A stretch of DNA of 64,000 bases. Origin: Escherichia coli (lineage in GTDB: Bacteria > Pseudomonadota > Gammaproteobacteria > Enterobacterales > Enterobacteriaceae). Position numbers and translations under genes: made by a program. The notes beneath the pieces were generated by a model. It was not told where the DNA came from and ran no database searches. It saw only the letters and a program-made list of their open reading frames with translations. Location: the NCBI RefSeq assembly GCF_003018115.1, contig NZ_CP027457.1; one strand, written 5' to 3'. Within the stretch, counting starts at the first letter, position 1. Every line of letters begins with the position of its first letter. This document shows positions 19,956-20,980 of this stretch, piece after piece.

Positions 19956-20615
19956 TTATTGCAATTGCACAAGAGTCAGTTCGCCCCCAAAGACAGCACC
20001 GGTATCAATATAATGCAGGTTGCCAATATCCACGCGATGTCGCAACGGTGTATGACCAAACCAGAAATGATCAGCACCTGTAATTCCCTGCACTTTTTGG
20101 CGTTCACTTAATCGCGAGCGGCTCCACAAGACCTGATGCAAATCGACGTCCTTTTGCCATTCATAAACATCATCTGGATAATCGGCATGAGCAATAACAT
20201 GCTTGCCGGTGCGACTGTGTACTTCAAGAATAAAAGGCAAATGCTGACATTTCCCCAGCGCCGTTTTCGCTTGTTTCTGTTGATTATCTGCCAGCGCAAT
20301 AAACCAGTCGCCGCCATTCATCAACCATAAAGACATCTGCTGGGATGCCAGCGCATCCATCGCCATCTGTTCATGATTGCCTCTTACCGCACGAACCCAA
20401 TGTTGTTCCAGTAACTGCAGACAACGTAAACTTTGCGGCCCACGATCGATAACGTCTCCTACTGAGATAAGTAAATCTCGCCACGGATCAAAACGACAAT
20501 GCCATAATTTGCGGCGCAACTGCTCAAGACAACCGTGTATATCGCCAGAAAGCCAGATATGTCGCCATTGATGACCCGCAATTCTCTGATAAACGGGCGC
20601 AGGCTGTTTCATCAA
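19956..20615 (-). CDS. pphA: Ser/Thr protein phosphatase 1
   Basis: Calcineurin-like metallophosphatase motifs GDIHG, GDVIDRG, GNHE. Confidence 0.9.
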   Translation of the reverse strand: MMKQPAPVYQRIAGHQWRHIWLSGDIHGCLEQLRRKLWHCRFDPWRDLLISVGDVIDRGPQSLRCLQLLEQHWVRAVRGNHEQMAMDALASQQMSLWLMNGGDWFIALADNQQKQAKTALGKCQHLPFILEVHSRTGKHVIAHADYPDDVYEWQKDVDLHQVLWSRSRLSERQKVQGITGADHFWFGHTPLRHRVDIGNLHYIDTGAVFGGELTLVQLQ

Positions 20616-20855
20616 TATTTTCCTCCCGCGCTAAAGATCACATAATCTTAACAAGAATGTTAAAAAACGCTGGACTCAGACAGTAGAGTGTGTGTTATGG
20701 TTGACTATAAAGTCAGCGAAGGAAATGCTTCTGGCTTTTAACAGATAAAAAGAGACCGAACACGATTCCTGTATTCGGTCCAGGGAAATGGCTCTTGGGA
20801 GAGAGCCGTGCGCTAAAAGTTGGCATTAATGCAGGCTTAGTTGCCTTGCCCTTTA
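20610..20855 (+). ncRNA. ryeA: RyeA (SraC) small RNA, antisense partner overlapping SdsR
   Basis: Position inferred from the known RyeA/SdsR overlap in K-12; ends not verifiable from sequence. Confidence 0.3.
20746..20849 (-). ncRNA. sdsR: SdsR (RyeB) small RNA
   Basis: Minus strand reads GCAAGGCAACUAAGCCUGCAUUAAUGCC...GACCGAAUACAGGAAUCGUGUUCGGUCUCUUUUU, matching my recollection of SdsR including its terminator hairpin. Confidence 0.8.
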
Positions 20856-20935
20856 AGAATAGATGACGACGCCAGGTTTTCCAGTTTGCGTGCAAAATGG
20901 TCAATAAAAAGCGCGGTGGTCATCAGCTTAAATGT

Positions 20936-20980
20936 TAAAAACCGCCCGTTCTGGTGAAAGAACTGAGGCGGTTTTTTTAT
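20936..20980. terminator. Bidirectional intrinsic terminator between the sRNA locus and yebY
   Basis: Hairpin aaaccgcc...ggcggttt flanked by T-runs on both strands. Confidence 0.5.

What the first reader, a model, noticed from the sequence alone, without database searches (positions are those of the whole stretch)
20610..20980. SdsR/RyeA overlapping sRNA pair between pphA and yebY
The minus strand carries a sequence matching my recollection of SdsR (RyeB), including its terminator. The antisense RyeA partner is placed by known K-12 organisation only. This is a known locus, recorded so the pphA-yebY gap is not mistaken for empty DNA.
Basis: established knowledge. Interest (0 to 1): 0.15.

Follow-up and report, generated by a model that had tools for sequence, protein, structure and literature searches.

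The report
Known SdsR/RyeA antisense sRNA pair
The gap between pphA and yebY holds the well-studied E. coli small-RNA pair SdsR (a stationary-phase regulator) and its antisense partner RyeA, essentially identical to the K-12 reference, so the finding is correct but ordinary.

Summary
Confirmed, and already known. Rfam gives full-length hits far above threshold for SdsR_RyeB (20846-20747, minus strand, 114 bits) and SraC_RyeA (20743-20887, plus strand, 175 bits). The locus is colinear with E. coli K-12 MG1655. Transferring the K-12 annotation places sdsR at 20747-20850 (-), 104/104 identical, and ryeA at 20709-20980 (+), 270/272 identical, between pphA (19956-20612, -) and yebY (21008-21349, -).

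The elements mapped experimentally in K-12 are all present unchanged:
- the sigma-S type sdsR promoter (TATTCT with C at -13);
- the ryeA -10 box TATGGT with an upstream TG;
- the sdsR terminator;
- a hairpin shared by ryeA and yebY, with T runs on both strands.

Across 68 Enterobacterales sequences the SdsR 5' and terminator helices show compensatory changes, and the sigma-S promoter is near-universal. The ryeA promoter flank is conserved only within Escherichia.

Mechanism, from the literature: SdsR is an Hfq-associated trans-acting repressor. RyeA limits it through RNase III-dependent mutual degradation and transcriptional interference. Read-through of the sdsR terminator transcribes pphA.

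Caveat: the RyeA Rfam hit largely mirrors SdsR and is not independent evidence. The stated interval is about 100 nt too wide on the left. Interest is low.

The parts
20747..20850 (-). sdsR (ryeB) gene, using the K-12 b4433 coordinates. The mature RNA mapped in K-12 runs from the TSS at 20849 to 3' ends at 20750-20748 (100-102 nt).
   Evidence: RF00111 hit at 114.4 bits. 104/104 identical to K-12 sdsR. TSS and 3' ends come from primer extension and RACE in PMC6610125. The fold has three hairpins at -35.2 kcal/mol, z = -3.8. Compensatory changes occur in helices 1 and 3 across 68 sequences.
20856..20883 (-). sdsR promoter of the sigma-S type. The -10 box TATTCT is at 20861-20856, with C at -13 (20862), T at -14, C at -8 and a TAA discriminator. 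The -35-like TGGAAA is at 20883-20878 with a 16-bp spacer.
   Evidence: Positions were read from the sequence. The features match those listed as sigma-S hallmarks in PMC3333887. TATTCT is the hexamer replaced in the sdsR promoter-mutation primer of PMC6610125. A CTAYNNT -10 motif that includes the C at -13 is present in 116 of 117 loci, and a 16-bp spacer to the -35 in 109.
20818..20836 (-). SdsR nt 14-32, the target-pairing region defined for ompD in Salmonella (3' side of the 5' hairpin plus the adjacent single strand).
   Evidence: PMC3333887: nt 14-32 fused to a scaffold RNA repress OmpD as well as full-length SdsR does. I mapped the coordinates from the TSS at 20849 (inference). The region is largely invariant or >=90% conserved in alignment A1.
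20747..20781 (-). sdsR Rho-independent terminator: an 11-bp stem at 20781-20753 followed by a U run. It is leaky, and read-through continues into pphA.
   Evidence: Terminator scan; inverted repeat I2; 100% of cells paired with 4 compensatory pairs. Read-through was shown in vitro and by RNA-seq in K-12 (PMC6610125).
20709..20980 (+). ryeA (sraC) gene, using the K-12 b4432 coordinates (272 nt). 3' ends mapped in K-12 correspond to 20969-20978. It spans all of sdsR and the sdsR promoter in antisense.
   Evidence: K-12 annotation transferred colinearly, 270/272 identical. RF00101 hit at 175.1 bits over 20743-20887, which is not independent of SdsR. 5' and 3' ends come from PMC6610125. Fold energy -87.8 kcal/mol, z = -3.05.
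20693..20701 (+). ryeA sigma-70 promoter core: an extended -10, TGtTATGGT. The -10 hexamer TATGGT is at 20696-20701, 7 nt before the TSS at 20709. There is no good -35.
   Evidence: Read from the sequence. TATGGT is the hexamer replaced by CTCGAG in the ryeA promoter-mutation primer of PMC6610125. RyeA is transcribed only by E-sigma70 in vitro. This flank is conserved only in Escherichia.
20937..20980 (.). Terminator hairpin with T runs on both strands. It ends RyeA on the + strand, and I infer that it also terminates yebY on the - strand.
   Evidence: Inverted repeat AAAAACCGCC / GGCGGTTTTT at 20937-20946 and 20967-20976. It forms the 3'-terminal hairpin in the RyeA fold. Position and structure are kept across genera while the stem sequence changes. 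RyeA 3' ends map here.
20613..20746 (-). sdsR-pphA spacer. It is the leader of the sdsR-pphA read-through transcript, with the pphA Shine-Dalgarno GGAGG at 20626-20622 and the ATG at 20612. On the opposite strand it carries the ryeA promoter and the first 38 nt of RyeA.
   Evidence: Sequence. pphA is transcribed mainly from the sdsR promoter by terminator read-through (PMC6610125).
20746..20777 (.). Unoccupied attachment core for a family of phage tyrosine integrases. It overlaps the sdsR terminator.
   Evidence: In E. coli Z1323CEC0011 a prophage of about 43 kb separates sdsR from pphA, and window 20746-20777 is present at both junctions. A related integrase gene lies within 1.5 kb beyond the sdsR 3' end, mostly 70-140 nt away, in 22 of 82 species loci. 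This was reported for Salmonella phage PhiW104, whose att site lies within the last 23 bp of ryeB.

Best explanation
The interval contains the E. coli sdsR/ryeA locus, two convergent, fully overlapping small-RNA genes. SdsR (about 102 nt, minus strand) is transcribed by sigma-S RNA polymerase in stationary phase and under stress. It is Hfq-associated and represses trans-encoded mRNAs by short base pairing through its 5' region (ompD in Salmonella; tolC, yhcB and reportedly mutS in E. coli). RyeA (about 270 nt, plus strand) is transcribed by sigma-70 polymerase during exponential growth and runs antisense across the whole of sdsR and its promoter. It restrains SdsR in two ways. First, it forms a perfect duplex of about 100 bp that RNase III cleaves, so the two RNAs deplete each other. 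Second, its transcription interferes with the convergent sdsR promoter. Part of sdsR transcription reads through the leaky terminator and makes the pphA mRNA, so pphA belongs to the same circuit. What is shown here: sequence identity, family membership, the promoter and terminator elements, structural covariation, synteny and conservation. What is inferred by transfer from K-12 and Salmonella experiments: expression, sigma-factor dependence, Hfq binding, RNase III cleavage, the targets and the pphA read-through.
For: Full-length Rfam hits far above threshold. Colinear with the K-12 annotation: SdsR 104/104 and RyeA 270/272 identical, and the whole 395-bp intergenic region differs at only 2 bases. 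The sigma-S promoter hallmarks and the ryeA extended -10 box are present, and these are the same hexamers mutated experimentally. The sdsR terminator and the shared ryeA/yebY terminator hairpin are present. Across 68 Enterobacterales sequences 97.8% of cells are paired and 7 pairs carry compensatory changes, with 0 of 500 shuffles reaching the observed values and much lower values in the slid controls. yebY lies upstream on the same strand in 102 of 106 loci. The locus is present in 5425 of 5426 complete E. coli genomes. Literature: sigma-S dependence, Hfq association and the seed region (PMC3333887); TSS and 3' ends, sigma selectivity in vitro, mutual degradation, transcriptional interference and pphA read-through (PMC6610125); ryeA-ryeB as the most abundant stationary-phase RNase III dsRNA cluster among those overlapping small RNAs (PMC7373196).
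Against: Nothing in the sequence argues against it. The limits are as follows. No expression data exist for this particular strain. The RF00101 hit is not independent of SdsR. The simple sigma-70 consensus scan did not flag either real promoter, which is expected for a sigma-S promoter and for an extended -10 promoter without a -35. The status of mutS as a primary target is questioned by the RNA-seq in PMC6610125. Two RyeA 3' SNPs relative to K-12 (20914, 20929) are untested, although the same allele is 100% identical in many other E. coli genomes.
Confidence: 0.96

Rival explanations
1. The primary biological role of the pair is as a type VIII toxin-antitoxin module. SdsR is an RNA toxin that kills or arrests cells by repressing yhcB, and RyeA is its RNA antitoxin.
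For: This is proposed by Choi et al. 2018 as summarised in PMC6610125. TADB 3.0 lists SdsR-RyeA as one of two experimentally validated type VIII loci (PMC10767807). [quoted passage not shown]
Against: The two partners are not co-conserved. sdsR with its sigma-S promoter is found across Enterobacterales (116 of 117 loci), whereas the flank carrying the E. coli ryeA promoter is recognisable only in Escherichia. PMC3333887 reaches the same conclusion. Prophage insertion at the sdsR 3' end removes the RyeA 5' part in natural strains without loss of sdsR, and the second partial copy of the locus in about 237 E. coli genomes is most simply explained by such insertions, of which I checked one. SdsR behaves like an ordinary regulon sRNA, at about 300 copies per cell in stationary phase.
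Confidence: 0.2
2. RyeA is not a functional RNA in its own right. Only the act of antisense transcription (promoter interference) matters, or it is a lineage-specific by-product, and SdsR is the only selected product of the locus.
For: The ryeA promoter flank is conserved only within Escherichia. RyeA size and promoter position differ between E. coli and Salmonella or Shigella, and SdsR rises only about 1.5-fold without SraC (PMC3333887). The ryeA promoter mutation changes few genes, and pphA is repressed by ryeA transcription but not by RyeA in trans.
Against: Mutual RNA-level degradation was demonstrated with promoter mutants and degradation assays. The RyeA-SdsR duplex is the most abundant RNase III-cleaved dsRNA cluster in stationary phase among those overlapping small RNAs. 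RyeA has its own efficient terminator and a defined 5' end.
Confidence: 0.15
3. The interval encodes a small protein, either ORF 20841-20957 (+, 38 aa) or ORF 20713-20904 (-, 63 aa), rather than, or in addition to, non-coding RNAs.
For: Both ORFs are open in the window. A weak AGG lies 5 nt upstream of the TTG start of the 38-aa ORF (read from the sequence).
Against: The 38-aa ORF has an in-frame stop in K-12. Both K-12/window differences fall at second codon positions, one giving an amino-acid change and the other that stop, and the frame decays in Citrobacter, Enterobacter and Salmonella. The 63-aa ORF would start upstream of the sdsR promoter and run through a structured, terminator-containing RNA. 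The curated K-12 annotation lists no CDS here. Both ORFs start with TTG.
Confidence: 0.02

Closest known systems
E. coli K-12 MG1655 sdsR (b4433) / ryeA (b4432)
   Same: Same genomic position (pphA-yebY gap), orientation, lengths, promoters and terminators. SdsR is 104/104 identical and RyeA 270/272 identical.
   Different: Only two substitutions, both in the RyeA 3' part (20914 T>C, 20929 G>T), outside the SdsR overlap and outside the terminator hairpin. The same allele occurs in many other E. coli strains, for example ATCC 8739 and O157:H7.
Salmonella enterica SdsR / SraC (Froehlich et al. 2012, PMC3333887)
   Same: Same sigma-S promoter architecture, same three-hairpin RNA, same position downstream of yebY, and a nearly identical sequence from nt ~24 to the 3' end.
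   Different: The Salmonella 5' hairpin loop differs, and its terminator stem has A-U where E. coli has G-U. Salmonella SraC starts about 35 nt further upstream, and its promoter flank is not alignable with E. coli's. The best-characterised Salmonella target, ompD, is not expressed in K-12.
Type VIII toxin-antitoxin systems (creTA; TADB 3.0)
   Same: Both partners are RNAs. SdsR-RyeA is listed as a validated type VIII locus whose partners lie on opposite strands.
   Different: creTA is tied to CRISPR-Cas. SdsR is a broadly conserved regulon sRNA whose 'antitoxin' is lineage-restricted.
Campylobacter jejuni CJnc190 / CJnc180 (the paper is PMC8687705; the RNA names and organism are from my own knowledge, since only the title and abstract start were seen)
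   Same: A trans-acting sRNA with a cis-encoded antisense antagonist, where RNase III acts on the duplex.
   Different: An unrelated sequence and organism. There RNase III matures the sRNA; here it mainly degrades both partners.
tRNA/tmRNA-type phage attachment sites
   Same: The 3' end of a small structured RNA gene serves as the attB core, and the phage supplies a replacement 3' end so that the gene stays intact.
   Different: The host gene is an Hfq-associated sRNA, not a tRNA. Integration also cuts off the antisense partner's promoter.

Membership tests
SdsR_RyeB (Rfam RF00111) | Covariance-model score at or above the gathering threshold over the full model | tested here: met
   114.4 bits against 38, model positions 1-100/100, E 1.8e-21.
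SdsR_RyeB (Rfam RF00111) | Three-hairpin secondary structure (5' hairpin, central hairpin, terminator) supported by covariation | tested here: met
   The MFE and centroid folds give the three hairpins. 97.8% of cells are paired, and 7 pairs have changes on both sides (3 in helix 1, 4 in helix 3), with 0 of 500 shuffles as high. Helix 2 is uninformative because the search pattern fixed it.
SdsR_RyeB (Rfam RF00111) | Sigma-S type promoter (C at -13, TATTCT/TAYNCT -10 box, A/T-rich discriminator, 16-bp spacer) | tested here: met
   Window: TCTATTCTTAAAGG upstream of the TSS at 20849, and TGGAAA at a 16-bp spacer. The criteria are from PMC3333887. The hexamer matches the one mutated in PMC6610125. 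Conserved in 116 of 117 loci.
SdsR_RyeB (Rfam RF00111) | Located downstream of yebY on the same strand | tested here: met
   yebY is at 21008-21349 (-) and sdsR at 20747-20850 (-). The same arrangement occurs in 102 of 106 loci.
SdsR_RyeB (Rfam RF00111) | RpoS-dependent stationary-phase expression and Hfq binding | not testable with these tools
   Known for K-12 and Salmonella. Transferred here by 100% sequence identity.
SraC_RyeA (Rfam RF00101) | Covariance-model score at or above the gathering threshold | tested here: met
   175.1 bits against 37, model positions 1-145/145. Caveat: the model mirrors sdsR plus its promoter, and a Paraglaciecola SdsR-like locus also passes in antisense at 47.5 bits, so this alone does not show a RyeA gene.
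SraC_RyeA (Rfam RF00101) | Own promoter beyond the sdsR 3' end that drives antisense transcription across sdsR | tested here: met
   TGtTATGGT at 20693-20701, 7 nt before 20709, identical to K-12. TATGGT is the hexamer replaced in the ryeA promoter-mutant primer, and RyeA is undetectable in that mutant.
SraC_RyeA (Rfam RF00101) | Rho-independent terminator upstream of the sdsR promoter, giving an RNA of about 270 nt | tested here: met
   Hairpin at 20937-20976 plus a T run. K-12 3' ends at +261 to +270 map to 20969-20978.
SraC_RyeA (Rfam RF00101) | Exponential-phase expression and RNase III-dependent interplay with SdsR | not testable with these tools
   Literature only.
Type VIII toxin-antitoxin system | RNA toxin whose expression arrests growth, neutralised by a cognate RNA antitoxin | not testable with these tools
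   Claimed for K-12. Needs growth assays.
Type VIII toxin-antitoxin system | Toxin and antitoxin inherited together as a module | tested here: not met
   sdsR is conserved across Enterobacterales, while the ryeA promoter flank is found only in Escherichia. Natural prophage insertion separates the ryeA promoter from sdsR.

The most novel reading that the evidence does not exclude
RyeA might have a function of its own beyond restraining SdsR, for example trans-acting or sponge activity through its roughly 130-nt non-overlapping 3' part (20851-20980). That part is still 73-78% alignable in Citrobacter, Enterobacter and Lelliottia, where the E. coli ryeA promoter is absent. The window's two 3' SNPs could then alter that activity. 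The evidence here does not exclude this. However, the conservation is more simply explained by the embedded sdsR promoter and the yebY terminator, and the ryeA promoter mutant changes few genes.
Probability: 0.04. Interest if true: 0.35.

Novelty: already known. Interest (0 to 1): 0.07.

Why it matters
Scientifically it adds nothing new. SdsR/RyeA has been known since 2001 and is characterised in detail. Its practical value is for annotation. In the RefSeq (PGAP) records I looked at, the pphA-yebY gap carries no annotated feature, yet it holds two RNA genes, the main promoter for pphA, a terminator hairpin shared by ryeA and yebY, and a phage attachment site. Recording it stops the gap being read as empty or as a novel element. 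It also flags that the RF00101 hit should not be counted as independent evidence for RyeA.

Tried and rejected
1. RF00101 as independent proof of RyeA: rejected. The model is essentially antisense sdsR plus its promoter, and it also fires on a Paraglaciecola SdsR-like locus. RyeA was instead supported by identity of its promoter, TSS and terminator to K-12.

2. The simple sigma-70 promoter scan found neither real promoter. Its single hit (21024-20997, minus strand) lies in the yebY 3' end, roughly where the old heat-shock pphA promoter was reported, and Choi et al. found that promoter inactive. The scan was uninformative for this locus.

3. Small-protein reading of ORFs 20841-20957 (+) and 20713-20904 (-): rejected. 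The first has a stop codon in K-12 and decays in other genera.

4. Helix 2 covariation could not be assessed, because the collection scan pattern fixed those bases.

5. Coordinate transfer to ATCC 8739 for the distant Rfam hits did not give full exact matches. The 30-nt probes matched for the cspC region but only partly for the REP region, so I used ORF context instead.

6. The hexamer strings themselves do not occur in the text of PMC6610125, and the figure sequence is not held. The mutagenesis primers in the methods gave the answer instead.

Full report
OBSERVATION. The finding says that the pphA-yebY gap (20610-20980) carries SdsR (RyeB) on the minus strand, with its terminator, and the antisense RyeA on the plus strand. 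A gathering-threshold Rfam scan of the whole window gave four hits, two of them here. SraC_RyeA (RF00101) matches 20743-20887 (+) at 175.1 bits against a threshold of 37 (E 2.9e-40), over the full 145-position model. SdsR_RyeB (RF00111) matches 20846-20747 (-) at 114.4 bits against 38 (E 1.8e-21), over the full 100-position model. ORF listing and BLAST against complete E. coli genomes identify the flanking genes as pphA (19956-20612, -) and yebY (21008-21349, -).

MAPPING TO THE REFERENCE. The K-12 MG1655 record annotates ryeA (b4432, 272 nt, +) and sdsR (b4433, 104 nt, -) between pphA and yebY. The window is colinear with it at an offset of +19142, with no indels. That gives ryeA = 20709-20980 and sdsR = 20747-20850. 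SdsR is identical to K-12 at 104 of 104 bases. The 395-bp intergenic region differs at only two bases (20914 T>C, 20929 G>T). Both lie in the RyeA 3' part, outside the SdsR overlap and outside the terminator hairpin. The finding's right edge is therefore exactly the RyeA 3' end. Its left edge sits in the pphA start codon, about 100 nt before the RyeA 5' end.

ANATOMY. Choi et al. 2019 (PMC6610125) mapped the K-12 RNAs by primer extension, 5'/3' RACE and in vitro transcription.
- The SdsR TSS lies 1 nt downstream of the annotated end, which is window 20849. Its 3' ends at +100 to +102 correspond to 20750-20748.
- RyeA has three start sites. The most downstream is 20709, and its 3' ends at +261 to +270 correspond to 20969-20978.
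- Upstream of 20849 the minus strand reads TCTATTCTTAAAGG. The -10 box TATTCT is at 20861-20856, with C at -13, T at -14, C at -8 and a TAA discriminator. TGGAAA lies 16 bp further upstream. These are the sigma-S selectivity features listed by Froehlich et al. 2012 (PMC3333887).
- Upstream of 20709 the plus strand has an extended -10, TGtTATGGT, at 20693-20701.
- The mutagenesis primers in Choi et al. replace exactly TATTCT and TATGGT with CTCGAG to make the sdsR and ryeA promoter mutants. My assignments therefore rest on their experiments.
- The sdsR terminator is an 11-bp hairpin at 20781-20753 followed by a U run.
- RyeA ends at a hairpin at 20937-20976 followed by T7. The same hairpin has a T run on the minus strand, where it follows yebY.
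- Both RNAs fold better than every dinucleotide shuffle: SdsR -35.2 kcal/mol (z = -3.8) and RyeA -87.8 kcal/mol (z = -3.05).

RELATED SEQUENCES. The 272-nt RyeA interval is found in 5425 of 5426 complete E. coli genomes, and 5423 of them cover at least 80% of it. None of the RefSeq rows listed has an annotated feature under the match. Nearly all are Enterobacterales: Escherichia, Salmonella, Citrobacter, Enterobacter, Klebsiella, Serratia, Yersinia, Dickeya, Hafnia, Sodalis and others.

In an alignment of 68 distinct sequences, SdsR is largely invariant or at least 90% conserved from about nt 24 to the 3' end. On the three-hairpin structure 97.8% of cells pair. Seven pairs carry changes on both sides, three in the 5' hairpin and four in the terminator. 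None of 500 shuffles reached the observed values, and the slid controls were far lower. The central hairpin could not be assessed because my pattern fixed it.

A -10 motif that includes the C at -13 is present in 116 of 117 loci, and a 16-bp spacer to a -35-like element in 109. yebY lies upstream on the same strand in 102 of 106 loci. By contrast, the flank beyond the sdsR 3' end, which carries the E. coli ryeA promoter, aligns only in E. coli and one other Escherichia species, with a weak partial match in one Enterobacter. This reproduces the published view that sdsR is the selected gene and sraC/ryeA is variable.

MECHANISM. This part is transferred from the literature on the strength of sequence identity. 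SdsR is sigma-S dependent, abundant in stationary phase and Hfq-associated. It represses ompD in Salmonella through nt 14-32, which I map to window 20836-20818. In E. coli it pairs with tolC, yhcB and reportedly mutS, although mutS did not behave as a primary target in promoter-mutant RNA-seq. RyeA is made only by E-sigma70 in vitro. [quoted passage not shown]

RIVALS.
- The pair is also classed as a type VIII toxin-antitoxin system. I rate this as a secondary description rather than the primary role. The partners are not co-conserved, and natural prophage insertion separates the ryeA promoter from sdsR.
- A 'RyeA is only transcriptional noise' reading is contradicted by the demonstrated RNA-level mutual degradation and by the dsRNA data.
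- A small-protein reading fails. The 38-aa ORF at 20841-20957 has a stop in K-12 and decays in other genera, and K-12 annotates no CDS here.

CAVEAT ON THE SUGGESTED TEST. The RF00101 model covers the reverse complement of sdsR plus about 40 nt of its promoter, so its hit is not independent of RF00111. A Paraglaciecola MAG locus with an SdsR-like RNA (RF00111, 62.5 bits) also passes RF00101 in antisense at 47.5 bits. The real evidence for RyeA in this window is the unchanged K-12 promoter, TSS and terminator.

SIDE OBSERVATIONS.
- The sdsR 3' end is a phage attachment site. In E. coli Z1323CEC0011 a prophage of about 43 kb (integrase, excisionase, RalR, RecT, RecE, Kil and others) lies between sdsR and pphA. 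Window 20746-20777 is present at both junctions, and the phage-side copy restores a complete sdsR.
- The E. coli search gave 5662 places in 5425 genomes, so about 237 genomes hold a second partial copy.
- A related integrase gene, on the opposite strand, lies within 1.5 kb beyond the sdsR 3' end, mostly 70-140 nt away, in 22 of 82 species loci with enough flank.
- This hot spot was described for Salmonella (Balbontin et al. 2008, as summarised in PMC7380047). The window has the empty site.
- Another strain has an IS10-like element inside sdsR with a 9-bp target duplication at 20834-20842.

VERDICT. The observation and the interpretation are both correct. The feature is a textbook locus, essentially identical to K-12. 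Novelty: already known. Interest is low; its value is in annotation.

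Noticed in passing
window 20746-20777; L003 3460-3540; L127: The sdsR terminator doubles as a phage attachment core. 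E. coli Z1323CEC0011 has a prophage of about 43 kb (integrase, excisionase, RalR, RecT, RecE, Kil) between sdsR and pphA, and this segment is present at both junctions. About 237 of 5425 E. coli genomes hold a second partial copy of the locus. A related integrase gene lies just beyond sdsR in 22 of 82 species loci. The site is empty in the window. The hot spot is known for Salmonella (Balbontin 2008).
   Followed up: yes
window 20834-20842; L004 2171-3501: E. coli strain 2017-03-3CC carries an IS4-family ISVsa5 (IS10-like) element inside sdsR with a 9-bp target duplication. It is a natural sdsR/ryeA disruption.
   Followed up: yes
L093 11011-11110 (+): A contig of an uncultured Paraglaciecola MAG (Alteromonadales) scores 62.5 bits on RF00111, above the gathering score of 38. 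It has the same central hairpin, CAUUCCCCUA motif and terminator, and a CTATACT box upstream. This may be an SdsR-like sRNA outside the Enterobacterales. It also passes RF00101 in antisense. A binning error in the MAG was not excluded.
   Followed up: partly
window 4795-5255 (-): The Rfam 'cspA thermoregulator' hit (136.9 bits) lies over the yobF-cspC operon (PGAP names the CDS cspE). The aligned, high-confidence part is the cold-shock-protein CDS, and the 5' leader part aligns poorly. It is therefore a paralogue hit, not evidence of a cspA-type thermosensor.
   Followed up: partly
window 42013-42088 (-): The Rfam naRNA4 (CssrE) hit at 67.2 bits is a REP/BIME-type repeat in the znuB (41057-41842, +) / ruvB (42185-43195, -) intergenic gap. 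Neighbouring sequence shows further REP-like copies.
   Followed up: partly
window 20997-21024 (-): The only sigma-70 consensus match in 20500-21100 (CTGAAA-16-TAAAAT) lies inside the yebY 3' end, about 150-175 nt upstream of the sdsR TSS. That is roughly where the older heat-shock pphA promoter was reported, and Choi et al. 2019 found that promoter inactive.
   Followed up: no
window 20709-20980: In every RefSeq/PGAP E. coli record listed (55 rows) no feature is annotated under the RyeA/SdsR match. Only the curated K-12 record annotates both. One of the 5426 genomes has no match at all, and one match lies on a plasmid; neither was examined.
   Followed up: no
loci L016, L031, L036, L042, L057, L098, L112 and others, 5-30 nt beyond the sdsR T-run: Many non-Escherichia loci share a TATAAATCA-N(6-7)-TTACA-like motif immediately downstream of the sdsR terminator. 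It may be an integrase arm site or a remnant att flank. I only saw it by eye in the output.
   Followed up: no
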